The translations under genes and the position numbers were made by a program. The notes beneath the pieces were generated by a model. That model had not been told where the DNA came from, made no database searches, and saw only the letters and a program-made list of their open reading frames with translations. A stretch of DNA of 64,000 bases from NCBI GenBank assembly GCA_029858255.1, contig JAOUFJ010000002.1, positions 138,637-202,636 of the forward strand, written 5' to 3'. The DNA is from a candidate division WOR-3 bacterium. GTDB taxonomy: Bacteria > Hydrothermota > Tepidihabitantia > SM23-42. Positions 40,131-61,945 of this stretch are shown piece by piece (the first letter of the stretch is position 1; each line of letters opens with the position of its first letter).

Positions 40131-40842
40131 AATAGGGACAGGCTACTTTTTTTTAGGCCTCCCCCTGGGCCTGATCGTTATCTCTATCCCCAATTCCCTG
40201 CATACTTCGGCACGCCATTCTTCATCACCATAAGGTCCTTGTCGCCGAATGCATGTCCTTAATTGCTCAAGCTCAATTCCCGGCAGTGGCTCGTCGACCA
40301 ACTCTCCCCAATTTTCAGGCAAATGCACTGGCAATTCATCTGTTAGGACACACTTCTCACCCGCAATTCTAAACGAATGGGAAGACCATCGCCAGTCCGC
40401 CGCTGTTGTAACCAAACCTGCTCTCACGGGATTCCCTTCAACATATCTGACCAGATTTATCAGATGCTCATCCTGTTTCGCAATGAAACTCTTGAAGCGG
40501 CCCTGCCAAACATGTCCGCACGTACGATAGTGACCATGATAACGCCGAACATGGCTTGTCATAAACCACTGCATCCATCTACTGAGATCTTCTCCCCTCT
40601 CGGGCATGACGACGAAGTGGAAGTGATTTGGCATTACGCAATAAGCAAAAATAGATATCGGTATCCTTGTCTTAGCTTCCTCCGCCAAGTACAAAAAAGC
40701 ATCGTAGTCTTTCTCTTTGTGAAATACTTGTTGTTTTCCATTACCTCGATTCAGAACATGGTAAACGAATCCATCGGCAAGACCTCTTGCGATGCGGGGC
40801 ATGATTCTGAAGGCCTTAAAAAAAGTAGCCTGTCCCTATTAT
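40128..40842. mobile_element. IS200/RAYT-type element: a Y1 HUH transposase gene flanked by 33-bp inverted repeats
   Basis: 40128-40160 'ATAATAGGGACAGGCTACTTTTTTTTAGGCC' is the reverse complement of 40810-40842, with one T-run indel. Confidence 0.75.
40143..40802 (-). CDS. IS200-like / REP-associated tyrosine transposase (Y1 HUH)
   Basis: HUH 'MPNHFHFVV'. Catalytic Tyr motif 'LVRYVEGNPVRAGLV'. 219 aa. Confidence 0.8.
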   Translation of the reverse strand: MPRIARGLADGFVYHVLNRGNGKQQVFHKEKDYDAFLYLAEEAKTRIPISIFAYCVMPNHFHFVVMPERGEDLSRWMQWFMTSHVRRYHGHYRTCGHVWQGRFKSFIAKQDEHLINLVRYVEGNPVRAGLVTTAADWRWSSHSFRIAGEKCVLTDELPVHLPENWGELVDEPLPGIELEQLRTCIRRQGPYGDEEWRAEVCRELGIEITIRPRGRPKKK

Positions 40843-43577: not shown

Positions 43578-43653
43578 ATGAATAATAAGAGGCCGTCTCA
43601 ATATTGGCACAATATCGGGTTCGGCTATCATCGACCAGAAAAGGAGGTTCGAT

Positions 43654-45468
43654 ATGAAAAAAATACTTATTTTGTGCCTGCTGTTGACTGCAGTAGCATA
43701 TAGCAGTCAACGAACGGTTGTAGTCGAGGAATTCACGGCTACGACGTGACCATACTGTCCAGGTACGGCAAGAGGTCTTGCCGAAATATATCCCCGTGCT
43801 TATGATACATTGACGGTAATATCGTACCATGTATGGTCCAGTGACCCGTTCAACACTGCTGAAGCCGAAGCGCGTGAAGCTTACTATGGTATATCCGGAA
43901 CACCTACTACTTGGTTCGATGGGGCAATATCCGAGGTCGGCGGGCTAAACACGGGCACCATGTACCCGTTTTTCCGGCATCACGTGACAACACGCGCAGC
44001 AGTCGATAGTCCGTTGGAGATTACACTGACCTGTGATTACGATTCAACAACGAACCAGGGAAATATCGAAGCAACAGTAACCAACACCACTGGAAGTCCG
44101 GTGAGCGGAAACATACACTTTGCCCTTGTCGAGGACAATATTCCCTACAATTGGGGTGGCGGGATGACCGAACTCGATCAGGTAATGCGCGATATGATCC
44201 CCGATGCAACAGGTGAAGCGGTCACAGTACCAGCCTCGGATACGATCATGCGCTCGAGGGATTTCACCGTCCAGGCGAGCTGGAACGAAGTCAATTGTCG
44301 CATCATCGTCTTTGTCCAGGCGTCGAACCGTCTGATATACCAGGGAGCTGAGATATCCATCATCCCTGAATCTCAGATGGTGTACTATGGCATGACCGTG
44401 ACAGAGCTTACAGGTAATGGTAACGGTTACGGAGAACCAGGCGAAGAGATCGAAGTCACAGCCCATGCCAAGAACATGGGAAGCAGTGTGTACACGCTTC
44501 CGGTTACGGTGGAATGTACCGACCCGAATATCACCGTCACTTCCTCCTACGTCGACACTTTTGAAATAGAGCCGGGTGATGTGGACAATGTCATAACATG
44601 GACTTTTGATATCAGTGCGGCTTGTCCTGATCCGCACCTTGCAGAATTCAATCTTGTCTTCGGTGATGGAAACGAGTCAACGGTGCCTTATCTAGTGACA
44701 ACACAATCAGGATTCAGCGACGACATGGAGTCTGGCGAAGGAGAATGGACACACTCGGGGACTTACGACAATTGGCACCTGACCGAGCACAAGAGCAATT
44801 CTCCAACACATTCCTGGTACTGTGGCGTAGAGAACATCTGGCACTATCTGAACCAAAATGATCTTTCACTCGTGTCCCCATATTTCATTGTATCACAGGA
44901 TAGCATATTATCCTTTTATCACCAATACAACTTAGAAACGAACTGGGATTATACGTACGCGGAGATCGAGAACGGTTCGGGTTGGTGGCAGACCCTCGAC
45001 GAATACAACGGTCTTCAATCGACATGGTCACAGGAAGCGTTTTCTCTTGCCAGTTTACAAGGCCAGACCGTACGCGTGCGATTCAGACTCGTCAGTGATT
45101 ACAGCACCTACGCTGAAGGCTGGTACATTGATGATGTCTGGGTGTCCATGACAGGAATAAACGATCTGAACACTCCGGAGGAACTTAACGCCATTTCCCT
45201 GAGCGTATCTCCTACCCTATTCTCCAGGCAAACGACCATCAGCTTCGGCATCGAACAGAGCGCAGGACAGATAGCGCTCAAGATATACGACGCTGCAGGA
45301 CGCCTGGTAAAAGATTTTTCTTACACTATACCCAATGCCCCATGCGCTATGCAGATTAGTTGGGATGGTACAGACCAAACTAATCGAAAATTACCAAGTG
45401 GTGTCTATTTCATATCCATGCAAGACTCCAATAGCAAAATCGTCGAGAAAGCGGTCCTTCTGAAATAG
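43654..45468 (+). CDS. Exported thioredoxin-fold SELENOPROTEIN with T9SS C-terminal sorting domain. In-frame TGA (43747-43749) read as Sec in a 'T-U-P-Y-C-P' redox motif. Signal peptide at the N-terminus.
   Basis: ATG 43654 'MKKILILCLLLTAVAYSSQ', then 'RTVVVEEFTATT[TGA]PYCPG...YYGISGTPTTWFDG' (Trx beta1, then CxxC position, then cis-Pro loop). Same frame as ORF 43810..45468, which ends in a T9SS CTD ('ALKIYDAAGRLV...GVYFISMQD'). Confidence 0.7.
43766..43783 (+). promoter_or_regulatory. SECIS-like hairpin 17 nt downstream of the UGA of the Trx-like selenoprotein
   Basis: ACGGCAAG-AGGT-CTTGCCG. Loop contains G-U, about 24-27 nt from the UGA. Confidence 0.55.
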
Positions 45469-45486
45469 CATCTCCAAAAAACACAA

Positions 45487-45518
45487 GGGCAGCACGTTTC
45501 AGCGTGCTGCCCTTTTTT
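45487..45518 (+). terminator. Rho-independent terminator after the T9SS selenoprotein gene
   Basis: GGGCAGCACG-tttcag-CGTGCTGCCC followed by TTTTTT. Confidence 0.75.
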
Positions 45519-45564
45519 CGTCTGTATCAGTTGACACTTAGCCGCCAATGACTATAATAAAACC

Positions 45565-46599
45565 ATGACTGAAAGCAAGAAGAAAGGCATACTTGCCACG
45601 GTCAAATGCGCGGGCTGAGCTTCGAAACTCTCAGCTGCGCAGTTGGCGCAGGCACTAGCATATTTGCCATCGGTTGAGGATCCTGACCTGCTGGTTGGTA
45701 CGAATACCGCAGACGACGCAGGTGTCTACCGTCTGAACGACGAGCTTGCATTGGTTAAAACGATCGACATTCTCACACCCGTCGTCGAGGACGCGCACAC
45801 TTTCGGCATGATCGCTGCAGCGAACTGCATATCGGACATCTACGCAATGGGCGGTGATCCCAAGTTGGCGCTCAACATCGTTGGGTATCCGGGCATGGGT
45901 GACCCCAAAATCCTCGGTGAAATGCTAAAAGGCGGCAATGACAAGGCGCGGGAAGCCAGCGTCACGACCATCGGCGGTCACACCTTTGCCTCGCCCGAAG
46001 TTATGTATGGTCTTTCAGTTTTAGGCTATATCCATCCCCTGAAAATAATCACGAATGCAGGGGCAAAAACTGACGATGTAATTATCCTGACGAAACCAGT
46101 TGGCGTTGGCACCATAATCCAGGCAATGCTTTTGGATAAAGATGAGGGTATAGACATGAAATCCGTTATAGATTCAATGACCACATTGAATCGAGATGCG
46201 TCAATTGCTATGCGCGCGGCCGGTGCGCACGGTGCGACCGACGTCACGGGATACGGTCTTATCGGTCACCTCGTTGAAATGAGCGAAGCGAGCAAATCAG
46301 GTATCGAAATTTCGCTGCAAAAAATACCAGTACACAAAGGGGCCGTGGAAATTCTGGATCGAGGCATCTTCGAACCAGGTATCACGATGAATCTGAATTC
46401 TTTCAGCAACCGCGTGGATAAGGGCGATAGTGATTCAAATCTTGTCAATTTGATCTTCGGCTCGGAGACTTCTGGCGGGTTGATCATTGCCCTGCCTGAA
46501 GAACGGCTCGAAGTATTCAAACAAAACTACAAAAAAGATTTTGCTGTCATTGGCCGCGTGACAAAGGAAAACGCCGGCCGGGTGACACTGATCCCGTAA
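45565..46599 (+). CDS. selD: Selenide, water dikinase (selenophosphate synthetase), Sec-containing form. In-frame TGA at 45616-45618.
   Basis: ATG 45565 gives 'MTESKKKGILATVKCAG[U]ASKLS...LLVGTNTADDAGVY...AAANCISDIYAMGGDP...DVTGYGLIGHL'. The TGA aligns with Cys17/Sec of SelD 'GAGCGCK'. The ORF-track TTG start at 45643 lies downstream of the catalytic residue. Confidence 0.85.
45619..45651 (+). promoter_or_regulatory. SECIS-like stem-loops immediately 3' of the selD UGA
   Basis: GCTGAG-cttcgaaact-CTCAGC (45614-45635), then CTGCGC-AGTTG-GCGCAG (45635-45651). Loop with G-U about 23-27 nt from the UGA. Confidence 0.55.
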
Positions 46600-46754
46600 C
46601 GACGCGAACCTAATTTCCCAAAAATTTGCCATCGCAGGACTAGAAAGAAATTTCGAATCCGTCACACAGGTCGTAACTCGTATTCGTAATTCGTATTCGT
46701 GAATGTCAAAATAGAGAAGAGTAGTAATGTAAGTTTCGTTGTCCACTGTTTCGG

Positions 46755-46815
46755 TCATTAGAATTTTGGTATTGGTTATTGTTTAGCATTTCGTGCTTCG
46801 AATTTAGAATTTGGC
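46755..46815. repeat. Family B repeat, copy 3 (more diverged), downstream of selD
   Basis: '...TTGTTTAGCATTTCGTGCTTCGAATTTAGAATTTGG'. Confidence 0.45.
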
Positions 46816-46905
46816 GAGCAGACCACATTAATTGGCTGGAGCAATCAGCTGCAGATTGTCCTTGACACATTCATAATCCGGGCTATAGTTAGACAGGAGG
46901 TGGTT

Positions 46906-47145
46906 ATGCCAAAATATCTAATTACCCTTCCAAAAATGCCCAAAGAGCAAATAATCACATCTTGAAAGGCGGTTGTTACCGCTTCCGGAGGAAGCAAAAT
47001 CTGCATGGACAAAGCTTATATAGACGAAGAAAACAGTCAGGCGATCTGCTGTTGGAGTGCTCCTGACCGCAAAAGCCTCGAAGAATTATTCGCCAAGGCG
47101 AATGTGCACGTGGAATCAATAAGGAGCGTCACCGAATACAAATAA
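46906..47145 (+). CDS. Candidate small selenoprotein (79 codons, DUF4242-like C-terminal half), in-frame TGA at 46963-46965
   Basis: GGAGG RBS 5 nt before ATG. 'MPKYLITLPKMPKEQIITS[TGA]KAVVTASGGSKICMDKAYIDEENSQAICCWSAPDRKSLEELFAKANVHVESIRSVTEYK'. Hairpin AGGCGGT-TGTT-ACCGCTT just after the TGA. A terminator follows. Confidence 0.4.
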
Positions 47146-47166
47146 TATCCGCTTTGAGTCAATATT

Positions 47167-47196
47167 AAGGGGCGGCGCAAGCCGCCCCTTCTGTTC
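47167..47196 (+). terminator. Rho-independent terminator
   Basis: GGGGCGGC-GCAA-GCCGCCCC followed by TTCTGTT. Confidence 0.7.
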
Positions 47197-47633
47197 CATC
47201 CGACCCCTGACACCCTTTCCTACACAGTACCCCCGTGCAGTCTGTGTAAATCGAACCTGAACGCACAAAAAAATAGACCATTGACATCATTTCTCAATTG
47301 AGTATTCTCTATAGGATGAATTTGCATGTTCTGTACCACAACGGAGGAAAGATATGAAGTGCATCTTATCGCAACCCGGTCGGGTGCGAAATCATATCAA
47401 CCTCTATTTCATCAGAATAACCCCTTCAAAAACACAGTCACATAAATCAATGAATTTCTGCCTTTGTGGAGATGTTCATTCTTATGGTGGTAGAAAGTGA
47501 CTCTGCACAACCGAGGGCTCGGTCGAGTCCATTCACAACCACCCCACAAGAATCATCTAACAAATCCGTCAAAAACTGCACGCTGCTTAACAGCAGCCAT
47601 ACAAAATTATGATCAACAAAAGGAGGTTCGGTA

Positions 47634-47930
47634 ATGGCAAATAAATGGGATACGGTCGTAGGCACCACAGAGTACGCTGAAAATCTCGCGAGGATCAATA
47701 AAATAGCACAGGACAATGGGTACGTACTCAATCCCGATGAAGATAGACTCCGAAAAGTAATCGGCCTCATGACTATGAATAACACTGAATTCGGTAAATA
47801 TTATTGTCCATGTAAGCAAAACCACCCGCTGAATCCCCACAAGGATACCCCTTGTCCCTGTCCTGAAATGAAGAATGAGATCTTCAAAGACGGGCATTGT
47901 TTTTGCAGACTATTTTACAGAAGAACGTAG
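47634..47930 (+). CDS. Ferredoxin:thioredoxin-reductase catalytic-subunit-like protein (FTR-like CPC...CPC...CHC protein)
   Basis: 'YYCPCKQNHPLNPHKDTPCPCPEMKNEIFKDGHCFCRLF'. Strong RBS AAAGGAGG. Confidence 0.6.
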   Translation: MANKWDTVVGTTEYAENLARINKIAQDNGYVLNPDEDRLRKVIGLMTMNNTEFGKYYCPCKQNHPLNPHKDTPCPCPEMKNEIFKDGHCFCRLFYRRT

Positions 47931-47940
47931 GAGAAAGAAA

Positions 47941-49200
47941 ATGAACAATCATGAGCAAATGTGGAAGGAATTAGGTCTTGATGTCGAACTACACAAGGAA
48001 TTGCTCAGATCAATCGACAATACTTTCCAACAAACGGTCGGGAAGCAAAACGAACGCCCTGCTTCCATGGCATACTTCGATCATGTCCTACACGAGTCAC
48101 ACGGCGGCCGAGTTGCTGAACTCATCGAAGCCAGAAAAACAGGTAAAAAATTCATCGGCACATTCTGTATCTATGTACCCGACGAGATCGCCATGGCTGC
48201 TGATGCGATCCCAGTGGCGCTTTGCGGCGGAACACAATTCTCTATCCCGTATGGTGAGAAGATGTTTCCTAGGAACATTTGCCCGCTGATCAAATCAACA
48301 TTTGGACTCGCCCTCTCGAAAACCTGCCCCTACGGTCCGATCAAAGACCTGGGCGTTGGCGAAACTACATGCGATGCAAAAAAGAAGGCCTGGGATGTGG
48401 TAAATTTCCACGTTATGGAAGTCCCCCAGAAGAAGACCGATCTGGATTTCAAATTATGGTATCAGGCCGTTTTGGATTTTAAGAACAGGGTTGAAGAACT
48501 CACGGGGAAGAAGGTGGAAGCAAACAGATTGGCTGAAACAATAAATATCATGAATGACAAACGACGCGCGCTTCAGAAATTGAACGAGTATCGCAAATTG
48601 GACCCGCCGACTATCAGCGGTCTCGATGCGCTTGTCGTCATGCAGGCTGCACTCAACGACGATCCTGCCCGGTTCACTGAACATCTTATAGAACTCAACA
48701 ATGAACTCGATGACCGTGTGCACCGGAGTATTTCGCCATTCAGTAAAGGCGTCAAGCGTATTATGATATCAGGTTGTCCTTCTGTCATGGGTAACTGGAA
48801 AGTGCACTCACTGATAGAAAAATCAGGCGCTGCAATTGTTGTGGACGAAACGTGCACCGGGACGCGCTATTTCAACGATCTGGTCGAAGACGGAGCCCAC
48901 GAAATAGATAAACAACTCCGTGCGTTGGCCGACCGTTACATGAAGATAGATTGCGCCTGCTTCTCTCCGAACAACGAGCGTATGAAGTCGATCGAGAGAA
49001 TTGTCGATGACCGCACCGTCGACGGCGTCGTACAATATATTCTTCAATACTGTCACGGTTACAATGTTGAAGCAATAAGGGTCGCCGGCATTCTGAGCAA
49101 GAAAAGCATCCCCAATATCAAAATCGAAACCGATTACGCTGAAGAAGACATGGGACAACTCCGCACGCGTATCGACGCTTTTCTCGAGCAACTAAGTTAA
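47941..49200 (+). CDS. 2-hydroxyacyl-CoA dehydratase / benzoyl-CoA reductase BcrBC-like (HgdAB family, double-cubane-type) protein. Start moved to ATG 47941 after the FTR-like stop.
   Basis: Family-typical C-terminus '...GQLRTRIDAFLEQL'. Cys-rich N-terminal part. Confidence 0.65.
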   Translation: MNNHEQMWKELGLDVELHKELLRSIDNTFQQTVGKQNERPASMAYFDHVLHESHGGRVAELIEARKTGKKFIGTFCIYVPDEIAMAADAIPVALCGGTQFSIPYGEKMFPRNICPLIKSTFGLALSKTCPYGPIKDLGVGETTCDAKKKAWDVVNFHVMEVPQKKTDLDFKLWYQAVLDFKNRVEELTGKKVEANRLAETINIMNDKRRALQKLNEYRKLDPPTISGLDALVVMQAALNDDPARFTEHLIELNNELDDRVHRSISPFSKGVKRIMISGCPSVMGNWKVHSLIEKSGAAIVVDETCTGTRYFNDLVEDGAHEIDKQLRALADRYMKIDCACFSPNNERMKSIERIVDDRTVDGVVQYILQYCHGYNVEAIRVAGILSKKSIPNIKIETDYAEEDMGQLRTRIDAFLEQLS

Positions 49201-49212
49201 GGAGGAACAATA

Positions 49213-49989
49213 ATAACGGCGGGTATCGATATCGGCTCACGCACAATAAAAAGAGTCCTGATGGATGGAAATAAGGTCATTGATTACGCAATAACAGATA
49301 CTGGCGTCGATCTTCCAAAAAATTTCCAGAGCGTATTAGGCGACCAAAAATATGATGCCCTTGTCGCCACTGGATACGGAAGATATCTTGCACAATCGCA
49401 CCTTAATTGCCGTATCATTACGGAAATCAAAGCCTATGCAATCGGCGCTCATTTCCTATTCCCGGACGTGCGCACCATCCTCGATATAGGCGGACAGGAC
49501 AGCAAGGTAATACGTGTGCACGGCGGCAAGGTAAAGGAATTTGAAATGAATGATAAATGCGCCGCTGGAACAGGAAAGTTTCTCGAAGTCATGGCAACCA
49601 CACTTGGATACACTCTGGATGAATTCAGTACCGCTGCTGCAGAAGCCAATGAAGCCGTGGCAATCAATTCTATGTGCACGGTATTTGCCGAGTCTGAAGT
49701 CGTATCTCTGATATCACGCGGAGAAGAACGCGAGAATATCGCGCTCGGTTTACACCAGTCAATACTCAACCGCATTTTGTCCCTCATGGGCAGAACAGGA
49801 TTCGAGGACCCACTGGTTTTTGCCGGAGGCGTGGCAAAGAACGGATGCATGACCATGCTATTGAAAAAGAAATTGAATATGAAAATACTGTCACCGGCCG
49901 AACCCCAGATAGTGGGTGCGATAGGAGCCGCTTTAATGGCAAAACATAAAGACGATGGTCATGGTCCACAAAAAACGAAAGGAGAGTAG
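49213..49989 (+). CDS. HgdC/BcrAD-type ATP-dependent activase (CoA-substrate-specific enzyme activase, ASKHA). It probably starts at a non-ATG codon about 49213.
   Basis: 'GIDIGSRTIK' phosphate-1 motif is encoded upstream of the first ATG (49261). 'NDKCAAGTGKF' is the cluster-ligand motif. GGAGG at 49201. Confidence 0.7.
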   Translation: MTAGIDIGSRTIKRVLMDGNKVIDYAITDTGVDLPKNFQSVLGDQKYDALVATGYGRYLAQSHLNCRIITEIKAYAIGAHFLFPDVRTILDIGGQDSKVIRVHGGKVKEFEMNDKCAAGTGKFLEVMATTLGYTLDEFSTAAAEANEAVAINSMCTVFAESEVVSLISRGEERENIALGLHQSILNRILSLMGRTGFEDPLVFAGGVAKNGCMTMLLKKKLNMKILSPAEPQIVGAIGAALMAKHKDDGHGPQKTKGE

Positions 49990-49990
49990 C

Positions 49991-50782
49991 ATGAAGTACA
50001 TAAAGGACTTCACGATAAAAGACGTGCAGGACGTGTATGATGGTCCTGGAGGACTACTGTGGGAAGCAGTAATGGGAGAACAGATCCACTCAGGCGGTCC
50101 AGAGGCAACCGACGCACTGGCACAAAAGGTTGGGCTCAAGAAAGGTATGGTCGTATGTGACATATGCAGCGCTTTGGGTGCACCGGCACGCCACCTCGCC
50201 TCAAAATACGGTGTCAAGGTCAAAGGCGTCGATGCTACGAAAACGATGCTTGACAAGGCACGACAGCGCACAAAGGAAGCGAAACTCGAAGAACTCATAG
50301 AATACTATGAAGGCAATGCCCTGGACCTTCCTTTCAAGAAAGAAACCTTTGATGTAGTATGGGGTCAGGAAGCATGGTGCTATGTCACTGACAAAAACAG
50401 GCTTATCCAGGAAGCGCACCGCGTGCTCAAGCCAGGTGGCAAGATCGCCTTCACCGACTGGATAATCACTGGAGAGATATCAAAGCAAGAACTCGACCCA
50501 TTGCTCGAGACTATGGCTTTCCCGTACATGGAATCTTTTCAAGGCTATCAGGACCTGCTGAAACAGAACGGCTTTAATGTACTTGAAGCAAGAGACCAGA
50601 CCGACGAATATGCAGAGTGTTTTGATGATTACTACGAAAAAGTGCACGTTGATTTGAAACCTACGATTCTGGATAATTTTGGGAAGGACCTGTTCGACTT
50701 TGCCTCGAACCTGGTAACGATCTGGCAAAAAGCTTCTCACGAACATAAAGTCGGTAGGGGCCTTTTTATCGGACAAAAATAA
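49991..50782 (+). CDS. Class I SAM-dependent methyltransferase
   Basis: 'MVCDICSALGAPARHLA' motif I. 'VLKPGGKIAFTD' motif. Confidence 0.6.
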   Translation: MKYIKDFTIKDVQDVYDGPGGLLWEAVMGEQIHSGGPEATDALAQKVGLKKGMVVCDICSALGAPARHLASKYGVKVKGVDATKTMLDKARQRTKEAKLEELIEYYEGNALDLPFKKETFDVVWGQEAWCYVTDKNRLIQEAHRVLKPGGKIAFTDWIITGEISKQELDPLLETMAFPYMESFQGYQDLLKQNGFNVLEARDQTDEYAECFDDYYEKVHVDLKPTILDNFGKDLFDFASNLVTIWQKASHEHKVGRGLFIGQK

Positions 50783-50895
50783 CGAATACCGGGGCGTCTT
50801 CAATTTTACACAGAGGCACCCCGCAATTGAACCACGTCACGAAAAAAAGTCAGGCTAAACACTTGACTGGGGCATGACGTACCATTATTATACAC

Positions 50896-51543
50896 GTGTT
50901 ATCTGGAGGTTCATTGCTTGAATCGATAAAAGAAGCAGTCATAGAAATGGATGAGGAGAAAGTAAGTGAGCTGGTATCCAGTGCGCTGAACGAAAAGATC
51001 GAGCCGGTTGACATCCTTGAAAAAGGGTTGATCTCCGGAATGCAGGAGGTAGCATCGCTATTCGCACGCAAGGAATACTACGTGCCCGAAGTCCTACTCT
51101 GCTCTGAAGCATTCTACGCGGGATTCGATATATTAAAACCGCTCATCGGAAAATCATCCCGTAAGCCCAAAGCAAGAATTGTGTTTGGCGTAGTGGAAGG
51201 AGACATACACGATATCGGCAAGAATATCGTTAAGGTCATGATGGAAGCAGCAGGCTACGAAGTCGTTGACCTGGGACGTGACGTACCCGTTGAGGACTTC
51301 ATCAAGGCAGTAGACAAAGAAAGACCGGATATACTCGCATTGTCGAGCCTAATGACCACCACAATGACACTTATGGCTGATATACTAAAGGAATTGGAGA
51401 AACGCAACTTGCGTCGTGGATTAAAGGTCATCGTCGGAGGGGCACCGGTGAATGAGGAATTCGCTGCAAGTATCAAGGCCGATGGCTACAGCCCGGATGG
51501 ACCTTCTGCAGTTAGACTGATCGAGAAACTGCTCAGTGGATAG
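50896..51543 (+). CDS. Cobalamin-binding corrinoid protein (MtaC/MtbC-type, B12-binding domain with N-terminal cap)
   Basis: 'GDIHDIGKNIV' DxHxxG motif. Downstream 'SSLM' and 'VGGAP' motifs. Confidence 0.8.
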   Translation: MLSGGSLLESIKEAVIEMDEEKVSELVSSALNEKIEPVDILEKGLISGMQEVASLFARKEYYVPEVLLCSEAFYAGFDILKPLIGKSSRKPKARIVFGVVEGDIHDIGKNIVKVMMEAAGYEVVDLGRDVPVEDFIKAVDKERPDILALSSLMTTTMTLMADILKELEKRNLRRGLKVIVGGAPVNEEFAASIKADGYSPDGPSAVRLIEKLLSG

Positions 51544-52468
51544 AATCTCTGCCGTCATAAATCATCAAAAATATTTTGCCGTATTTCCGATGGTCTGCGC
51601 TGACCACGGCGCGTATCTACTAAACCTCAAATTCAAGGAGGTTGCAGAAGATGGAGAAAAACTCGCCCATGTCCTGCAGTACACCTATGAACTCTATGGC
51701 TACGATATGGTGCTGGTTTTCTCGGATCCCTACGTTGAAGCACAGGCGCTTGGCTGCCCGGTCGAACTTGACCCTTACCCCGCTCTGATCGGATCTGCAA
51801 CGGTGCATTCTGTCGATCGCACTGAAGAGATCATCCATGCGGCGGACATTCTAAGGAGCAGCATCGACGTTCCGATATTCGTTTCCATCAAAGGTCCCTT
51901 CACTCTCGCTGCCTTCCTCGATGGCATCGAGCATTATCTGAAGATAGTTTTGAAAAAAGAAACAGAGGCCTCGCAGCTCTTGCAGGAAGCACTACAATAC
52001 CAACTGGGATATTTGGAGAGAATTTTGTCCGTCGGTGTCAACATTATGATCGGAGACCCCCTCGCATCATCGAGCGTAATATCGCCCGCAATATTCCTGA
52101 AATATGCATTCACAGGGCTAAAGACGATGGTGGCAAAAGCAAAAACTAGCGGCGCAATCGTTGGCGTCCACATCTGTGGAGACGTAGGCGCAATATCAGA
52201 ATATCTTGATGACCTGGACGCTGATATCCTGAGTATAGAAGGCATCAACATTCGGACAGAGACTTTAAAAATGGGTGGTGTAGGAACCGATACGATATTG
52301 AACGGAGACCTGAAATGCATGAGATCAGAGGTGGAAAATGCGTTCAAAAATGAATTCATAATCCTGTCCACAGCGTGCGACGTTCCACCCCACACAGAGC
52401 CGGCAAATATCAAGGCCATGCTCCGATTCGCCCGTGAGTGCGGCCGTGAATATGGAGTACAAAAATGA
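51536..52468 (+). CDS. URO-D-family methyltransferase (MtaA/MtbA/CmuA-like, methylcobamide methyltransferase type)
   Basis: Uroporphyrinogen-decarboxylase-like fold signature regions. Adjacent to the corrinoid protein. Confidence 0.65.
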   Translation: MDRISAVINHQKYFAVFPMVCADHGAYLLNLKFKEVAEDGEKLAHVLQYTYELYGYDMVLVFSDPYVEAQALGCPVELDPYPALIGSATVHSVDRTEEIIHAADILRSSIDVPIFVSIKGPFTLAAFLDGIEHYLKIVLKKETEASQLLQEALQYQLGYLERILSVGVNIMIGDPLASSSVISPAIFLKYAFTGLKTMVAKAKTSGAIVGVHICGDVGAISEYLDDLDADILSIEGINIRTETLKMGGVGTDTILNGDLKCMRSEVENAFKNEFIILSTACDVPPHTEPANIKAMLRFARECGREYGVQK

Positions 52469-53451
52469 AGTTGATCGGCTATGCGTGCTCTTACATACCA
52501 GTCGAAATACTCTCCGCTACTGGATTGCAGCCATACCGACTCCTCCATGGCGATATAGACCTTTCGAAGCAAGGGGAACGCTTCGTAAGGGTAGATGCTT
52601 GTCCCATGGTGAAATCAAATCTCGCTTATGCCATCCAGAATGCAGACAAATTCGCCGCGCTGATTGGTACAACCGGGTGCGACATGTCTCGCAGAATGTT
52701 CGATGTCCTGAGCGAACAGACGAACATACCAGTGTATATGGTGAATAACCCGAGAACCGACAACCCTGCGATGTATAATGATGAAATTGACTGGCTGGTA
52801 AAACAACTCGAACACTTTTCCCATATGAAATTCACCGACGAGATGATCCGGGAAGAAATATCCAAATGGGAAGGAATGCGCGCAGAATTACGGATCATCG
52901 ACGAAAAGAGAGCAGCCCACCCGTCACTCGTATCGACGACAGACTTCCATAGCGTAATGGCCGGCTATCATAAAGGGTCGTTTGATGAGAATGTCACTTT
53001 CTGTCAGAACCCCTCAGATAGACCAAGGTTATACTTATTAGGCAGCGCTATCACGTACGAGGCAAATCATATCCTTCAATTGATAGAAGAAAATCTCCGT
53101 ATTGTAGGTGATTTCAATTGCGGACTTTCTCGACCCCTTCACATCAAGATCGAAGGACAGAGTATCGACGGCATCAAGAAAGCGTATTACAACCAACCGC
53201 CGTGCCTGTACAAAAGACCGCATCAGAAGTACTACGACTTCGTAGCCATGGAGATTGCCAGACTGAGATGCATCGGTATAATTGCATGGACACTGGATTA
53301 CTGCGATGTTCATGAGTTCGAACTGCAGAAGATCGAAAAGGTATTCAACCTCCCGGTATTAAGGATACGGAGTGATTTTTCCTATCAGGGTAACAGCCAG
53401 TTGAGGACACGAATCGAGGCCTTTGCGGAGATGCTATGTTCGAGGATCTAA
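52465..53451 (+). CDS. HgdB/BcrC-like (2-hydroxyacyl-CoA dehydratase family) protein
   Basis: 'MKLIGYACSYIPVEIL' N-terminus. '...QLRTRIEAFAEML' C-terminus. Confidence 0.65.
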   Translation: MKLIGYACSYIPVEILSATGLQPYRLLHGDIDLSKQGERFVRVDACPMVKSNLAYAIQNADKFAALIGTTGCDMSRRMFDVLSEQTNIPVYMVNNPRTDNPAMYNDEIDWLVKQLEHFSHMKFTDEMIREEISKWEGMRAELRIIDEKRAAHPSLVSTTDFHSVMAGYHKGSFDENVTFCQNPSDRPRLYLLGSAITYEANHILQLIEENLRIVGDFNCGLSRPLHIKIEGQSIDGIKKAYYNQPPCLYKRPHQKYYDFVAMEIARLRCIGIIAWTLDYCDVHEFELQKIEKVFNLPVLRIRSDFSYQGNSQLRTRIEAFAEMLCSRI

Positions 53452-55855: not shown

Positions 55856-56562
55856 ACGTTGGGTCCAGCTACACAAAAGGAATTGTGTTTGACGGCCGGA
55901 TAAGGGACAAGATCGTTTTCAAAACATCATTCAAGCCAAAACTGGCGGTCGAGAGAGCACTGAATGAACTCCGAGGCTACGACAGCATAGTCGCTACTGG
56001 ATTCGGACGGGAGCTCGTCACGACGGCCGACAAGACGATAACGGAAATCACGGCATTTGCCAAAGGTGCATCTTATTTCGAACCTCAGCTTCGAACTATC
56101 ATCGATATCGGCGGGCAGGATAGCAAGATCATCAAAGTCAAAGATGGGCGCGTCGACCGATTTGTCATGAATGACCGCTGTGCGGCTGGGACCGGAAATT
56201 TCGTTGAGAAAATCGCGCAAGCCCTTGACCTAAGCCTGGCCGAATTCGGCGAGTTGGCCGTGCATGCAGACCGTGCTGAAATCATTGATTCACTTTGCGT
56301 GGTCATGGCCGAAACAGAGATTCTTAGTCTCGTTGGAGAAGGTAAACGGCTTGAAGACATCGTTGCCGGGGTGTGCGACGCGCTCGTTCGGCGAATCGAT
56401 GGTATAGGCAGCCAGATAGGCATTGAGGAACCAATATTGTTCTGCGGCGGCGGCGCCCTTAATCCCGGTCTTGTCAAATCGATGAGACGCATATTCAAGG
56501 AAGTCACCATTCCAGAGTATCCCCAATATGTCGGGGCAATTGGCGCTGCACTGTCGCTCTGA
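55840..56562 (+). CDS. Second HgdC/BcrAD-type ATP-dependent activase
   Basis: 'LGLDVGSSYTKG' and 'NDRCAAGTGNF'. ~240 aa. Confidence 0.75.
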   Translation: MVLGLDVGSSYTKGIVFDGRIRDKIVFKTSFKPKLAVERALNELRGYDSIVATGFGRELVTTADKTITEITAFAKGASYFEPQLRTIIDIGGQDSKIIKVKDGRVDRFVMNDRCAAGTGNFVEKIAQALDLSLAEFGELAVHADRAEIIDSLCVVMAETEILSLVGEGKRLEDIVAGVCDALVRRIDGIGSQIGIEEPILFCGGGALNPGLVKSMRRIFKEVTIPEYPQYVGAIGAALSL

Positions 56563-56657: not shown

Positions 56658-58058
56658 GTGAAGGATGCCATGAAAACTAAAGAAATACTGAGAAATATTC
56701 CATCGGTGGATAAAATCCTTAACTGGGATGAAATAAAGGAATCTCTCAAAATCCTCAACCAAGACCATATAACCAGGATCATACGCGATAACGTAGAAAA
56801 CTACCGAAAACTTCTGATTGCCGGTGAAAAAATCGACGATAGTCGTTTGAAAAAAGCAATCTTAGCCGATATCCAGGATCTTATCACTCCCTATTTCTGC
56901 TATGCGGTCAATGCGCTCGGTATTGTTTTGCATACGGGATTGGGCCGTGCACCGTTTAACAAACACATTGCAGAAGTCATCCATGATATGTCCATGGGCT
57001 ATTCACGGTTGCAAATCGATGATGATGGAAAGCGGGCTGACCGCTACAAGAAGATCAATCGCTTGCTTCAGATCTTAACCGGGGCCGAAGCCGGGATCAT
57101 CGTCAACAACAACGCTGCCGCAACAATGCTCATCCTCAGTGCAATGGCAAAAGGCAAAGAGGTAATCGTGTCAAGGGGTCAACTCATTGAGATCGGTGGA
57201 GCATATCGTATTCCAGACATAATGGCGCAGAGCGGTGCGATAATGCACGAAATAGGCACAACCAATAGAACACATCTTAAGGACTATACAGGAGCAATAA
57301 ATGAGAACACAGGTGCGATACTGCGCGTGCACCAGTCAAACTACCGTATTATTGGCTTCACCAAAGAAGTCCCATTGGATGAGCTTGTCGAACTGGGGAG
57401 AAAACACAATATCCCGGTTATCGATGACCTGGGAAGCGGAGCGCTGATCGATTTTGCCGCATATGGACTGCCCAAAGAACCTATGGTACAAGAGAGCATC
57501 GCCACGGGAGCTGACGTAGTCTGTTTCAGCGGCGATAAACTGATCGGCGGACCACAATGCGGAATTATTATCGGTAAGAGGCAACATATAGAGTTAATAA
57601 AGAAAAACCCGCTTACCCGGGCGCTGAGATGCGATAAACTAACTAATGCTGCATTAGAAGCCACGCTTCAAATGTTTCTGCTCAAAGAGGAAGATTTAGT
57701 ATTAAATCACGCCGTTTTGGGCATTTTACTTAAACCATTAGATGAAATAAAATCTCGCGCGAAGCGTTGTGCGAGAGGTCTGAAAGCTGCATTTGGCAGC
57801 ATCCTCGAGGTATCTGTACGCTCGGGCGTCAGTGAGATTGGCGGAGGTTCACTCAGTACAGAACAGCTGCCCACCTATCTGGTGGCTATCAAATCACAAG
57901 ATATCGCGGCAAGCGATCTGGCACATGCCCTGCGGCGATACCAAACACCGGTTTTTACCAGGGTTGCCGAAGACAGTGTTCTCCTCGACTTCCGCACCGT
58001 TGTGAAGGGCGAGGAAAAGATAATACTTGAAGCCTTCAAGACAGTCCTCAAAATCTGA
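56658..58058 (+). CDS. selA: L-seryl-tRNA(Sec) selenium transferase
   Basis: 'IIVNNNAAATMLILSAMAKGKEVIVSRGQLIEIGGAYRIPD...HEIGTTNRTH...FSGDKLIGGPQCGII' aligns with SelA, including the PLP-lysine region. Confidence 0.9.
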   Translation: MKDAMKTKEILRNIPSVDKILNWDEIKESLKILNQDHITRIIRDNVENYRKLLIAGEKIDDSRLKKAILADIQDLITPYFCYAVNALGIVLHTGLGRAPFNKHIAEVIHDMSMGYSRLQIDDDGKRADRYKKINRLLQILTGAEAGIIVNNNAAATMLILSAMAKGKEVIVSRGQLIEIGGAYRIPDIMAQSGAIMHEIGTTNRTHLKDYTGAINENTGAILRVHQSNYRIIGFTKEVPLDELVELGRKHNIPVIDDLGSGALIDFAAYGLPKEPMVQESIATGADVVCFSGDKLIGGPQCGIIIGKRQHIELIKKNPLTRALRCDKLTNAALEATLQMFLLKEEDLVLNHAVLGILLKPLDEIKSRAKRCARGLKAAFGSILEVSVRSGVSEIGGGSLSTEQLPTYLVAIKSQDIAASDLAHALRRYQTPVFTRVAEDSVLLDFRTVVKGEEKIILEAFKTVLKI

Positions 58059-58191: not shown

Positions 58192-60114
58192 GTGATGGAT
58201 ACGAGAAAGAAACACATCGTTATCGGTACCGCGGGACACATTGATCACGGAAAGAGCGCTTTGATAAAAGCACTCACCGGTGTCGACCCGGACCGGCTCA
58301 AGGAGGAGAAAGAGCGAGGTATGACCACAGACCTCGGCTTTGTTTTTTACAGCGCCGATGTAACTATCATCGACGTACCGGGTCATGAAAAATTCGTTCG
58401 GCATATGGTAGCCGGAGCATCGACTATTGACTTCGTGATCTTCGTGGTCGCCGCTGACGATGGAGTAATGCCACAAACGCACGAACACCTTGAGATTCTT
58501 AAACTACTCGGAATAAAAAAGGGTATCGTTGTAATTACAAAGAAAGACCTTGTTGAGAAAGACATGCTGGAAGTAGTAATAGACGATGTGAAGCGTGCCC
58601 TGACTAATTCTTTTCTGGAGAATGCGCCGATCATTAAGGTTTCAAATATCACCAAAGACGGTATCGAAGAACTCAGGAAATGCCTCGACGAGCTGATCAC
58701 TCAGATCGAGCCAAAAACCGACCGTGGTATATTCAGGATGCCTATTGACCGCCGGTTCGTGATAAAAGGATTTGGCACCGTGGTTGCGGGCACGGTTTTA
58801 TCAGGCAAAGTCAAAATAGGGGATACTGTCGAGCTACTACCCGAGAAAAAAAGTGTCAAAGTCAGGGGGATCGAAGTCCATAATGAAAAAGTAGATACCG
58901 TGGGCACTGGATTCCGCGCAGCCATCAACCTTGTAGGCGCTGACAAAGATGAGATCGACCGCGGTGATGTGCTCGCCCAGCCCGGTTTTTATGAACCATC
59001 GGAATACCTGAATGCATCTTTATACCTATTGTCTTCCGCTGGCAAGCCACTGAAGAATTTCAGCAGATTGCGGATACACGTCGGGACAAATGAAATATTC
59101 GGCCGCGTTGTGTTACTCGATAAAAAAACACTCGGACCAGGGCAAAAAGCAATGGTTCAGTTCAGATTGGAATCCCCGGCTGTCTGCGACATCAACGATA
59201 ATTACGTAATAAGATCCTATTCGCCACAAATGACCATTGGTGGCGGCCTCATAATCGAGCCCAAAGCGACAAAAGCAAAGGGGTTTGATGAGGAACTGAT
59301 CAGCCATTTGCAGCGCATGGAAGTCGGTGAACCCGTTGTGATCGTAGAAGAGGATCTATTGGCGAATTTCGATCTTCCAAGGAAACCCGAGGAAATCGCT
59401 CATGATGTTAACCTCCCCCTCGCAGAGACGAAAAACCTCATAGAAAATCTGATACAGCAGGGAAAGATAATATGTCTTGACGAAAAACGCGGGTTTTACT
59501 ATCACCAGAAGAACCATGAAAAACTGAAGGCGCAAATCGTCGAAAATCTTGGCACCTACCACAAGGCGAATCCGACCGGCGTCGGGCTTTCCGCCCTTGA
59601 ACTATTGAAGAATATCAGCCGCGGTCTCGATAAAGTTCTCCTGGACCGTACACTCGCAAAAATGGAAAAGGAGAAAATCGTACGCCTCACGCCAGACGGA
59701 AAGATCAATCTATTCGAGCACAAAGTAGTGGTCGACAAAGACCTCGATGCCACGATCAAAAAAATCGAGCAGCTCTTCATTGAAGGCGGCTATAAACCGC
59801 CCTCTTACCAGGATGTGGTTACCCGCAACCTAGATCCTGAGAACGTCGTAAAGAAAGCGTACCGTTATATGCTCGATACCGGGCTCCTGGTAAATGCCGG
59901 CGAGGGCATTGTCTTGCACCAGAATTATGTTAAAGCAGCAGAGCAAAAACTCATCGAATTCTTGAAGACAAATAAGGAAATAAGAGTCTCCCAGTTCCGC
60001 GACCTGCTCGATGCAAGCCGCAAGTTTGTCCTGCCGCTTCTGATATATTTCGACACGCGCGGTGTCACGATCAAACGAGGCGACGTAAGGGTGTTGGGAC
60101 AAAAATACCGCTAA
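58192..60114 (+). CDS. selB: Selenocysteine-specific elongation factor
   Basis: G-domain 'GTAGHIDHGKSAL', 'DVPGHEKF', 'TKKD'. ~640 aa with C-terminal winged-helix extension. Sits next to selA. Confidence 0.9.
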   Translation: MMDTRKKHIVIGTAGHIDHGKSALIKALTGVDPDRLKEEKERGMTTDLGFVFYSADVTIIDVPGHEKFVRHMVAGASTIDFVIFVVAADDGVMPQTHEHLEILKLLGIKKGIVVITKKDLVEKDMLEVVIDDVKRALTNSFLENAPIIKVSNITKDGIEELRKCLDELITQIEPKTDRGIFRMPIDRRFVIKGFGTVVAGTVLSGKVKIGDTVELLPEKKSVKVRGIEVHNEKVDTVGTGFRAAINLVGADKDEIDRGDVLAQPGFYEPSEYLNASLYLLSSAGKPLKNFSRLRIHVGTNEIFGRVVLLDKKTLGPGQKAMVQFRLESPAVCDINDNYVIRSYSPQMTIGGGLIIEPKATKAKGFDEELISHLQRMEVGEPVVIVEEDLLANFDLPRKPEEIAHDVNLPLAETKNLIENLIQQGKIICLDEKRGFYYHQKNHEKLKAQIVENLGTYHKANPTGVGLSALELLKNISRGLDKVLLDRTLAKMEKEKIVRLTPDGKINLFEHKVVVDKDLDATIKKIEQLFIEGGYKPPSYQDVVTRNLDPENVVKKAYRYMLDTGLLVNAGEGIVLHQNYVKAAEQKLIEFLKTNKEIRVSQFRDLLDASRKFVLPLLIYFDTRGVTIKRGDVRVLGQKYR

Positions 60115-61851: not shown

Positions 61852-61945
61852 TGGCGGAGGCGTGTAGGAATCGAACCTACCGTCCCCCTTTCGAAGGACA
61901 TCCGGGTTTGAAGCCCGTCAGGCACACCAGCACCCATCCGCCTCC
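61852..61945 (-). tRNA. selC: tRNA-Sec (anticodon UCA), about 94 nt, CCA encoded
   Basis: Minus strand GGAGGCGG-A-TGGGTGCTGGTGTGCC-TGA-CGGG-CTTCAAA-CCCG-...-GTCC-TTCGAAAGG-GGAC-GG-TAGG-TTCGATT-CCTA-CA-CGCCTCC-G-CCA. Long acceptor, long variable arm, anticodon TCA. Confidence 0.85.

What the first reader, a model, noticed from the sequence alone, without database searches (positions are those of the whole stretch)
43654..45468. T9SS-exported thioredoxin-fold selenoprotein with a U-x-x-C active site
ATG 43654 opens a signal peptide, then a classical thioredoxin core: beta-strand 'VVVEEFTATT', redox motif position, cis-Pro loop 'YYGISGTPTTWFDG'. The codon at the first active-site cysteine position is TGA (43747-43749). 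Translation stays in frame through a ~450-aa middle region to a Por/T9SS C-terminal sorting domain ending at 45468. The ORF track starts this gene only after the TGA (43810). Reading TGA as Sec gives a 604-aa exported 'T-U-P-Y-C-P' seleno-thioredoxin. A 7-bp hairpin with an AGGU loop follows the UGA at +17, and selA, selB, selC and selD are all in the same window. Sec-containing Trx-like proteins are known; a T9SS cargo protein carrying Sec is unusual.
Basis: partly seen in the sequence, partly recalled or inferred. Interest (0 to 1): 0.9.

Follow-up and report, generated by a model that had tools for sequence, protein, structure and literature searches.

The report
Secreted thioredoxin-like selenoprotein, HBP35 relative
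This is a real but mis-annotated gene from an uncultured WOR-3 bacterium for an exported thioredoxin-like enzyme that uses selenocysteine in place of its first active-site cysteine and carries a type IX secretion tag. It is a new branch of an already predicted selenoprotein group, not a new kind of thing.

Summary
ATG 43654 opens a 604-residue frame with one in-frame TGA (43747-43749) in a T-U-P-Y-C-P motif. The same codon is TGA in 22 of 30 homologous loci and Cys in the other 8. Every Sec locus has a SECIS-type hairpin 14-26 nt downstream, and no Cys locus does. The window also holds selA, selB, tRNA-Sec and selD, and it uses TGA as its commonest ordinary stop.

The kind is not new. NCBIfam NF045500, 'Omp28-related selenoprotein', is the 'GOS_C' family of Zhang and Gladyshev (2008) and has the same UxxC site. 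The window protein scores 75.5 bits against a cutoff of 200. It is therefore a distant, longer, WOR-3-specific relative.

Public annotation (MDH4210211.1) truncates the gene after the TGA. T9SS machinery and enzyme activity could not be tested. Interest is moderate.

The parts
43604..43631 (+). Promoter-like site (TTGGCA-16-TATCAT), 23 nt upstream of the start codon
   Evidence: It matches 10 of 12 consensus positions. This is a consensus match only.
43640..43647 (+). Ribosome-binding site AAAGGAGG, 6 nt before the ATG
   Evidence: Sequence read.
43654..45468 (+). Full coding sequence: 604 residues with U at residue 32, stop TAG 45466-68
   Evidence: Full-length orthologs of 598-620 aa have the same architecture.
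43654..43707 (+). Sec-type signal peptide (MKKILILCLLLTAVAYSS); no conserved lipobox
   Evidence: By inspection. An equivalent N-terminus is conserved in frame upstream of the TGA in all loci. No signal-peptide predictor was available.
43747..43749 (+). UGA selenocysteine codon (residue 32), first position of U-P-Y-C
   Evidence: The codon is TGA in 22 loci and TGC/TGT in 8. The column is invariant U/C.
43766..43783 (+). bSECIS hairpin: 7-bp stem, AGGU loop, 23 nt between the UGA and the loop, -10.1 kcal/mol
   Evidence: It meets the four published bSECIS criteria. It is paired in 96% of cells against 22-55% in slid controls, and one pair alternates A-U (9) with G-C (6).
43711..43998 (+). Thioredoxin-fold domain (residues ~20-115), with U32-x-x-C35 at the N-cap of helix 1 and invariant P84 (cis-Pro position)
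   Evidence: AF2 model of the Cys ortholog P0001. Profile hits to thioredoxins, with 1FO5 at 4e-8.
44005..44364 (+). Beta-sandwich domain (residues ~118-237), covered by the Pfam Omp28 PF11551 match (residues 75-239)
44377..44697 (+). Second Ig-like beta domain (residues ~242-348)
   Evidence: AF2 model 2, pLDDT about 85-95.
44713..45144 (+). MAM-like / choice-of-anchor-J-like jelly-roll domain (residues ~354-497)
   Evidence: InhA-like_MAM 23.7 bits and choice_anch_J 22.8 bits, both just under cutoff. PF20773 is precomputed on the orthologs. Foldseek finds MAM-containing structures.
45193..45465 (+). Type A T9SS C-terminal sorting domain (residues ~514-604)
   Evidence: TIGR04183 scores 26.7 bits (cutoff 23) when the last 110 aa are scanned alone. 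Nine of nine orthologs score 30-48 bits. FlgD_ig scores 39.4 bits.
45485..45520 (+). Intrinsic terminator: 13-bp stem followed by a T-run, 17 nt after the stop codon
   Evidence: sequence.
45565..46599 (+). selD, itself a selenoprotein (TGA 45616-18, motif U-A-S-K), directly downstream with its own perfect consensus promoter (45531-58)
   Evidence: The adjacency is conserved in two WOR-3 clades.
56658..58058 (+). selA (Sec synthase)
   Evidence: TIGR00474, 545 bits.
58192..60114 (+). selB (Sec-specific elongation factor that reads the SECIS)
   Evidence: TIGR00475, 352 bits.
61852..61945 (-). selC, tRNA-Sec (anticodon UCA)

Best explanation
The gene encodes a 604-residue exported selenoprotein.

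Shown or directly inferred from sequence:
- Translation starts at ATG 43654.
- At UGA 43747, SelB carrying Sec-tRNA(Sec) is recruited by the hairpin at 43766-83 and inserts selenocysteine.
- This gives a U32-P-Y-C35 redox site at the N-terminus of helix 1 of a thioredoxin fold. That fold is packed against a beta-sandwich, the same two-domain module as P. gingivalis HBP35.

Inferred:
- The signal peptide sends the chain through SecYEG into the periplasm.
- The C-terminal type A domain then hands the folded protein to a type IX secretion system for release or attachment at the cell surface.
- There the selenolate acts as the attacking nucleophile of a selenol/thiol-disulfide oxidoreductase.
- The Ig-like and MAM-like domains act as spacer and binding modules.

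The physiological substrate is unknown.
For: Sec decoding:
- TGA is at the same column in 22 of 30 loci and Cys in 8, with in-frame conservation of the signal peptide and strand beta1 upstream.
- U/C32 and C35 are invariant.
- All 22 Sec loci have a hairpin of -6.2 to -13.1 kcal/mol with a G in the first two loop positions, in at least 6 different sequences. The 8 Cys loci reach only -0.4 to -4.5, even where they encode the same A-A-R-G-L peptide.
- One stem pair switches cleanly between G-C and A-U.
- The published bSECIS criteria are met.
- selA, selB, selC and selD are present.
- TGA is the commonest normal stop, used by 21 of 53 genes.

Fold:
- The AF2 model has pLDDT 84 and beta-alpha-beta-alpha-beta-beta-alpha topology.
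- HBP35 C48-G-Y-C51 aligns with U-P-Y-C.
- HBP35 has cysteine-dependent thioredoxin activity and complements an E. coli dsbA mutant (PMC2907840).

Export:
- The CTD passes TIGR04183 in the window protein and in 9 of 9 orthologs.
- A second CTD protein lies in the window.
Against: - There is no experimental evidence for selenium incorporation, secretion or activity.
- No T9SS machinery gene lies within the 64 kb, and I found no paper on T9SS in WOR-3.
- In the full-length scan the CTD is just under cutoff (22.4 vs 23, and 24.3 vs 27).
- The hairpin alone is not statistically unusual, and its covariation rests on essentially one compensatory event among related sequences.
- The first structure model is of the 55%-identical Cys ortholog, not of the window protein.
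- A surface thioredoxin has no obvious electron donor.
Confidence: 0.85

Rival explanations
1. The TGA is an ordinary stop. The real gene is the 552-aa ORF from TTG 43810, as in the public annotation. The 31-codon upstream ORF is then an unrelated leader peptide.
For: The public record MDH4210211.1 has exactly this 552-aa product, and orthologs are recorded at 467-507 aa. TGA is a normal stop elsewhere in the window.
Against: - The truncated product would carry a secretion CTD but no signal peptide. It would also lack strand beta1 and the active site of its own Trx fold.
- The upstream 31 codons are conserved in frame in 22 loci, down to 30% identity.
- Full-length homologs have Cys at exactly this codon.
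- The hairpin tracks the TGA.
- Gene callers cannot read Sec, so the truncated records are expected.
Confidence: 0.04
2. The gene is a pseudogene, or the TGA is a sequencing or assembly error for TGC/TGT.
For: A single-base change separates TGA from TGC or TGT.
Against: The same TGA appears in 22 independent assemblies from different studies and lineages, always with an intact frame of about 600 codons and a downstream hairpin. The neighbouring selD also has a canonical UxxK Sec codon.
Confidence: 0.02
3. Sec is decoded, but the U-x-x-C pair serves mainly as a ligand-binding site (haem as in HBP35, or a soft metal or metalloid) on a surface receptor, rather than as a catalytic redox centre.
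For: - HBP35 binds hemin and is needed for growth under hemin limitation.
- Several recently predicted selenoproteins are proposed metal binders.
- The MAM-like and Ig-like domains suggest a binding role.
- A few homologs have SxxC.
Against: - HBP35's hemin binding was also shown for its 27-kDa form.
- The active-site geometry is that of a canonical thioredoxin, including the invariant cis-Pro position.
- HBP35's CxxC is catalytically active.
- The two roles are not mutually exclusive.
Confidence: 0.2
4. The protein is exported only to the periplasm or outer membrane and is not a T9SS substrate. The C-terminal domain would then be just another Ig-like (FlgD_ig-type) module in a lineage that may lack T9SS.
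For: The best Pfam hit for the tail is FlgD_ig (39.4 bits), while Por_Secre_tail is under GA. No T9SS genes lie in the window, and I found no literature on T9SS in WOR-3.
Against: - The curated TIGR04183 model is passed by the window tail and by 9 of 9 orthologs at 30-48 bits.
- The tail sits at the extreme C-terminus and ends in the typical K-x-[VIL]-[VIL]-[LV]-[KR] pattern.
- Of 22 likely Sec-form representatives, 16 also hit TIGR04183.
- Another protein in the window has Por_Secre_tail above GA.
- WOR-3 is usually placed in the FCB group (my own knowledge), where T9SS occurs (PMC12398890).
Confidence: 0.2

Closest known systems
Hypothetical protein GOS_C = NCBIfam NF045500 'Omp28-related selenoprotein' (Zhang & Gladyshev 2008, PMC2398784; Table 1 of PMC13188914)
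   Same: Both have a Trx-like fold with a UxxC motif near the N-terminus and many Cys homologs. NF045500 is the best NCBIfam hit of the window protein, aligning residues 15-235 with model positions 34-267. Function is unknown in both.
   Different: The score is 75.5 bits against a cutoff of 200. None of 11 family members tested individually comes closer, and in a pooled scan of 22 N-truncated representatives (5 of them among the 11) the best NF045500 E-value is 6.7e-17. The window clade is from WOR-3/TA06 rather than marine samples. It is about 600 aa rather than the model's 377, with an added Ig-like domain and MAM-like domain. Neither paper mentions HBP35 or T9SS.
HBP35 of Porphyromonas gingivalis (PDB 5Y1A; PMC2907840)
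   Different: HBP35 has Cys, not Sec. Sequence identity is only about 16%. HBP35 lacks the extra Ig-like and MAM-like domains (344 aa vs 604 aa). Haem binding was not assessed here.
Omp28 family (Pfam PF11551; NF033782 lipoprotein; PDB 2R2C)
   Different: The solved Omp28 fragment covers the sandwich only. The NF033782 lipoprotein model is not passed (59 vs 150), and the signal peptide has no lipobox.
Sec-containing thioredoxin, thiol:disulfide interchange and DsbA-like selenoproteins (UxxC; Table 1 of PMC13188914)
   Same: Sec replaces the N-terminal nucleophilic Cys of a Trx-fold CxxC, and Cys orthologs are common.
   Different: Those are small single-domain cytoplasmic or periplasmic proteins. 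This one is a five-domain protein with an outer-membrane secretion tag.
DUF1223 / Atu2684 (PDB 2AXO)
   Different: It has a different second domain and no CTD, and it has not been reported as a selenoprotein.

Membership tests
Bacterial selenoprotein gene (SelB/SECIS-dependent UGA decoding) | In-frame UGA conserved among orthologs and aligned with Cys in homologs | tested here: met
   22 loci have TGA and 8 have Cys at one invariant column.
Bacterial selenoprotein gene (SelB/SECIS-dependent UGA decoding) | bSECIS: 3-9 nt loop, 4-16 bp stem, G in the first two loop positions, 16-37 nt from the UGA, <= -7.5 kcal/mol (PMC13188914, Fig. 2) | tested here: met
   The window hairpin has an AGGU loop, 7 bp, 23 nt spacing and -10.1 kcal/mol. 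By my reading of the table, 20 of 22 Sec loci meet all four criteria and 2 reach only -6.2. It is absent from all 8 Cys loci. No Rfam SECIS family matches.
Bacterial selenoprotein gene (SelB/SECIS-dependent UGA decoding) | Genome encodes selA, selB, selC and selD | tested here: met
   All four are in the window and above curated cutoffs.
Bacterial selenoprotein gene (SelB/SECIS-dependent UGA decoding) | Selenium physically incorporated at the UGA position | not testable with these tools
   This needs 75Se labelling or mass spectrometry.
NF045500 Omp28-related selenoprotein (GOS_C) | HMM score at or above the curated cutoff of 200 bits | tested here: not met
   The window protein scores 75.5 bits. 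Eight of ten relatives tested reach 29.5-64.6 bits and two give no hit. It is therefore not filed as a member.
NF045500 Omp28-related selenoprotein (GOS_C) | UxxC motif on a Trx-like fold | tested here: met
Thioredoxin fold | beta-alpha-beta-alpha-beta-beta-alpha topology with CxxC at the N-terminus of helix 1 and a cis-Pro before strand beta3 | tested here: met
   AF2 model of the Cys ortholog. P84 is invariant and aligns with the thioredoxin Pro-Thr in 1FO5 and 2YPM. Pfam Thioredoxin_2 itself scores only 21 bits against GA 27.
HBP35-like T9SS thioredoxin cargo | Two-domain Trx plus beta-sandwich module homologous to 5Y1A, with an aligned active site | tested here: met
HBP35-like T9SS thioredoxin cargo | Thioredoxin activity and hemin binding | not testable with these tools
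   These are known only for HBP35 itself.
Type A T9SS cargo | C-terminal type A sorting domain (TIGR04183 / PF18962) | tested here: met
   The tail alone scores 26.7 against a cutoff of 23, and 9 of 9 orthologs score 30-48. In the full-length scan it scores 22.4 against 23, and PF18962 scores 24.3 against 27.
Type A T9SS cargo | N-terminal Sec signal peptide | tested here: inconclusive
   The MKK-hydrophobic-AYSS pattern was read by eye and is conserved in all loci. No predictor was run.
Type A T9SS cargo | T9SS machinery encoded in the same genome | not testable with these tools
   None was found in the 64-kb window.
Omp28 (Pfam PF11551) | Score at or above the gathering threshold | tested here: met
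   66 bits against 34.9, over residues 75-239.
Omp28 family outer-membrane lipoprotein (NF033782) | Curated cutoff of 150 bits and a lipoprotein signal | tested here: not met
   It scores 59.4 bits. There is no lipobox, and Cys8 is not conserved.

The most novel reading that the evidence does not exclude
The surface-displayed U-x-x-C module may be functionally tied to selenium supply. The Sec-form gene sits immediately upstream of selD in two WOR-3 clades only about 52% identical to each other, and in the window clade it also sits downstream of an MFS transporter. No Cys-form gene in this set has selD as a neighbour. On this reading, the protein would capture or reduce extracellular selenium (or related chalcogen or polysulfide) species at the cell surface and feed the SelD pathway. 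[quoted passage not shown]
Probability: 0.07. Interest if true: 0.8.

Novelty: new variant of a known kind. Interest (0 to 1): 0.4.

Why it matters
- **Annotation.** The public record (MDH4210211.1) and its orthologs, one of them labelled 'immune inhibitor A', lack the signal peptide and active site because the Sec codon was read as a stop. The whole WOR-3/TA06 clade is recorded about 100 residues short.
- **A functional handle.** The finding links an orphan predicted selenoprotein group (GOS_C / NF045500, 'no functional evidence') to the only biochemically characterised relative, HBP35. That makes its function testable through thioredoxin or DsbA-like activity, haem binding and T9SS secretion.
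- **A possible first.** If secretion is confirmed, it would show a selenoenzyme displayed on a bacterial cell surface by the T9SS, in an uncultured anaerobic phylum. I found no paper describing this.

Tried and rejected
- **Alternative genetic code (UGA = Trp or Gly):** rejected. TGA ends 21 of 53 genes, and only two genes have an internal TGA.
- **Rfam SECIS families:** nothing matched at E <= 10 near either UGA. The weak hits near 45486 are the terminator.
- **Single-sequence fold significance of the hairpin:** weak, z = -0.8 to -2.0. I relied on comparative evidence instead.
- **Membership in NF045500 and NF033782:** tested and failed.
- **Structure prediction of the U-to-C window sequence:** I modelled the Cys ortholog P0001 and, separately, window residues 33-604. 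In the second model the Trx part is unreliable (pLDDT about 35) because strand beta1 is missing and the alignment is shallow there.
- **Whole-chain Foldseek of model 2:** only generic multi-beta-domain matches.
- **Search for T9SS machinery in the window:** none among 58 ORFs scanned.
- **Literature:** no paper holds both 'Omp28' and 'selenoprotein'. 'selenoprotein' with 'T9SS' gave only incidental co-mentions. 'WOR-3' with type IX secretion or with selenoproteome gave nothing. A search on T9SS in FCB candidate phyla was uninformative.
- **Other selenoprotein genes in the window:** none found beyond selD.
- **Not done:** I did not verify upstream TGAs for the roughly 25 N-truncated cluster representatives. 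Only the 30 loci with DNA were checked.
Full report
**1. Observation**

ATG 43654 lies 6 nt after AAAGGAGG. It opens a frame that runs to TAG 45466-68 with one internal TGA at 43747-49. The product reads MKKILILCLLLTAVAYSSQRTVVVEEFTATT-U-PYCPGTARGL….

The mechanical ORF list begins the gene only at TTG 43810. A 7-bp hairpin with an AGGU loop (CGGCAAG-AGGU-CUUGCCG, 43766-83) begins 17 nt after the UGA.

The Sec machinery is all in the window:
- tRNA-Sec at 61852-61945(-), found by ARAGORN and by Rfam at 75 bits.
- selA at 56658-58058 (TIGR00474, 545 bits).
- selB at 58192-60114 (TIGR00475, 352 bits).
- selD at 45565-46599 (TIGR00476, 296 bits).

**2. Is the UGA read as selenocysteine?**

*Homologs.* The N-terminal domain has few close relatives in the 5.8-billion-protein collection. 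One full-length relative from a WOR-3 MAG (P0001, 55% identical) has T-C-P-Y-C-P-G where the window has T-U-P-Y-C-P-G. Three others were called as N-terminally truncated ORFs. Their DNA shows, in frame upstream, a signal peptide, strand beta1 and a TGA at exactly the same column.

*Wider survey.* A scan of species-representative genomes added 26 loci. Over all 30 loci the codon is TGA in 22 and TGC/TGT in 8. In an alignment of 19 diverse members the U/C32 and C35 columns are invariant. E25, R74, Y78, P84, G90, E160, G170, R179, M181, P183 and G187 are invariant too.

*Genetic code.* The window uses the standard code. TGA ends 21 of 53 genes, and only this gene and selD contain an internal TGA.

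**3. SECIS**

The published bacterial SECIS model has four requirements (PMC13188914):
- a 3-9 nt apical loop on a 4-16 bp stem;
- a G in the first two loop positions;
- 16-37 nt between the UGA and the loop;
- a free energy of -7.5 kcal/mol or lower.

The window hairpin meets all four: AGGU loop, 7 bp, 23 nt, -10.1 kcal/mol.

As a single sequence it is not significant (z = -0.8 to -2.0). The comparative evidence is what counts:
- In 16 Sec orthologs the helix is paired in 96% of cells, against 22-55% when the 3' arm is slid. One pair alternates cleanly between A-U (9 sequences) and G-C (6), and another shows a G-U wobble.
- More distant Sec forms carry different hairpins at the same distance. 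L002 and L021 have UAAAGGUC-UGRAU-GACCUUUA, L001 has a 10-bp stem with a GUCU loop, and L022, L028 and L029 differ again.
- The Cys forms L010, L012 and L014 encode the same A-A-R-G-L peptide with other codons and have no hairpin.
- Every Sec locus (-6.2 to -13.1 kcal/mol) beats every Cys locus (-0.4 to -4.5). This gives U = 0 and p = 1.6e-5, not corrected for relatedness.

No Rfam family matches, as expected for bacterial SECIS elements.

**4. What the protein is**

*Family hits.* The best Pfam hit is Omp28 (PF11551, 66 bits, residues 75-239), not thioredoxin (Thioredoxin_2 scores 21 bits, below GA).

*Structure of the N-terminal half.* An AlphaFold2 model of the Cys ortholog (pLDDT 84, pTM 0.79) has beta-alpha-beta-alpha-beta-beta-alpha topology. 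The CxxC sits at the N-cap of helix 1, and a beta-sandwich follows.
- Foldseek agrees (E 4.5e-13).
- The family profile finds HBP35 by sequence at E 7e-5. It aligns EVFTAEW-C-GY-C-PG of HBP35 with EEFTATT-U-PY-C-PG of the family.

*What is known about HBP35.* It is a T9SS cargo. It reduces insulin faster than E. coli thioredoxin, needs C48 and C51 for that activity, complements an E. coli dsbA mutant, and binds hemin (PMC2907840).

*The rest of the protein.* A model of window residues 33-604 gives confident all-beta domains:
- sandwich, residues 121-237;
- Ig-like domain, residues 242-348;
- jelly roll, residues 354-497;
- C-terminal domain, residues 514-602.

The jelly roll has near-cutoff hits to InhA-like MAM and choice-of-anchor J. 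Foldseek finds MAM-containing structures. No second catalytic domain is apparent.

**5. Secretion tag**

In the full-length scan the tail is marginal: TIGR04183 scores 22.4 against 23, and PF18962 scores 24.3 against 27. FlgD_ig scores 39.4.

Scanned alone, the last 110 residues pass TIGR04183 at 26.7 bits. All nine orthologs tested pass at 30-48 bits. Another protein in the window (105-719) has Por_Secre_tail above GA. Of 22 N-truncated, likely Sec-form cluster representatives, 16 hit TIGR04183.

'T9SS cargo' is therefore an inference from the tag.

**6. Family size and annotation state**

An exhaustive search with the Cys ortholog finds 2,159 cluster representatives at E <= 1e-3. Among the top 150:
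- about 119 carry CxxC, mostly C[QGTP]YC;
- about 25 start just after the active site, which is the signature of a UGA-truncated call;
- a few have SxxC.

The broader Bacteroidota and Ignavibacteria members are proteins of about 350 aa with E-E-x-T-N-A-S-C-G-P-C and a Por_Secre_tail. That is the HBP35 architecture.

The exact 552-aa truncated product of this window is in GenBank as MDH4210211.1, 'Omp28-related outer membrane protein [candidate division WOR-3 bacterium]', on a 207-kb contig. Orthologs are recorded at 467-507 aa, and one is named 'immune inhibitor A'. The nearest genomic relatives (85-88% identity) are complete WOR-3 MAG chromosomes. The window is therefore from WOR-3.

**7. Comparison with what is known**

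NCBIfam holds NF045500, 'Omp28-related selenoprotein'. It is the window protein's best NCBIfam hit, but at 75.5 bits against a cutoff of 200. None of 11 family members tested individually does better. In a pooled scan of 22 N-truncated representatives, 5 of them among the 11, the best NF045500 E-value is 6.7e-17.

The 2026 review lists NF045500 as 'Hypothetical protein GOS_C, UxxC'. The original paper reports 74 Sec and 312 Cys sequences, a Trx-like fold and 'no functional evidence' (PMC2398784).

So the kind is known: a UxxC Trx-fold selenoprotein of the Omp28-related superfamily. The window protein is a distant relative that fails the family's membership threshold. It comes from a different phylum and carries two extra domains.

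I found no paper connecting these selenoproteins with HBP35 or with T9SS.

**8. Context**

The gene appears to be its own transcription unit. It has a promoter-like site at 43604-31 and a 13-bp terminator at 45485-45514.

selD follows immediately, with a perfect consensus promoter, and it is itself a selenoprotein (U-A-S-K). The Sec-form-gene-then-selD order recurs in two WOR-3 clades that are about 52% identical to each other. It does not occur beside any Cys form in my set. This could reflect co-inheritance of a selenium island, or it could reflect a functional link. I rate the functional link as unlikely but not excluded.

**9. Verdict**

The UGA is, with high probability, a Sec codon in the nucleophilic position of an HBP35-like thioredoxin module on a multidomain protein with a T9SS type A tag.

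- Shown: the codon conservation, the hairpin association, the Sec machinery, the fold, and the tag.
- Inferred: selenium incorporation, secretion route, oxidoreductase activity and substrate.

Novelty is modest: a new, mis-annotated variant of a predicted selenoprotein kind. Its value lies in correcting the annotation of a whole clade and in tying the orphan GOS_C-type selenoproteins to a characterised enzyme.

Noticed in passing
window 45565-46599 (+): selD is itself a selenoprotein. It starts at ATG 45565 and has an in-frame TGA at 45616-18 (…ATVKCAG-U-ASKLS…, the UxxK motif). A CUGCGC-AGUUG-GCGCAG hairpin lies 22 nt from the UGA to the loop. The ORF list starts it only at TTG 45643.
   Followed up: partly
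window 45531-45567 (+): A perfect sigma-70 consensus (TTGACA-16-TATAAT) ends 6 nt before the selD ATG, with no Shine-Dalgarno sequence. selD may therefore be translated from a leaderless mRNA.
   Followed up: no
window 43654-46599; loci L005, L007-L009, L016-L018, L020, L023: selD lies directly downstream of the Sec-form gene in two WOR-3 clades about 52% identical to each other. It is not next to any Cys-form gene, nor in the Sec loci L011, L013 and L015.
   Followed up: partly
window 47634-56562 (+): A gene cluster sits between selD and selA. It holds a 98-aa ferredoxin-thioredoxin-reductase-catalytic-like protein (CPC…CPC…HCxC; PF02943, 52 bits), three HGD-D (2-hydroxyacyl-CoA dehydratase-like) genes, two BcrAD/BadFG activator ATPases, a SAM methyltransferase, a B12-binding protein and two URO-D/MtaA-like genes. 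This is an unusual mix of corrinoid methyltransfer and radical dehydratase parts.
   Followed up: no
window 105-719 (+): A 204-aa protein with a CarboxypepD_reg-like domain and a Por_Secre_tail above Pfam GA (30.6 bits). It is a second T9SS-tagged protein in the window.
   Followed up: no
window 19043-21112 (-): A 689-aa fusion of a family-5 extracellular solute-binding protein (SBP_bac_5, 269 bits) with a C-terminal TonB_C domain (67 bits). This is an uncommon architecture.
   Followed up: no
window 46600-47630: About 1 kb has no convincing ORF, only a 46-aa SCO4226-like fragment at 47005-47145. No Rfam family matches at gathering threshold. Its content is unexplained.
   Followed up: no
window 40143-40802 (-): An IS200-like Y1 transposase lies 3 kb upstream of the selenoprotein gene.
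   Followed up: no
cluster representatives P0075, P0132: A few full-length family members have Ser at the Sec/Cys position (T-W-S-T-L-C, T-W-S-P-F-C). SxxC forms cannot form the intramolecular disulfide.
   Followed up: no
public records MDH4210211.1, UCG29832.1, MBE0432611.1: Public annotation of this gene and its orthologs is N-terminally truncated (467-552 aa). One ortholog is named 'immune inhibitor A', apparently because of the MAM-like domain.
   Followed up: yes
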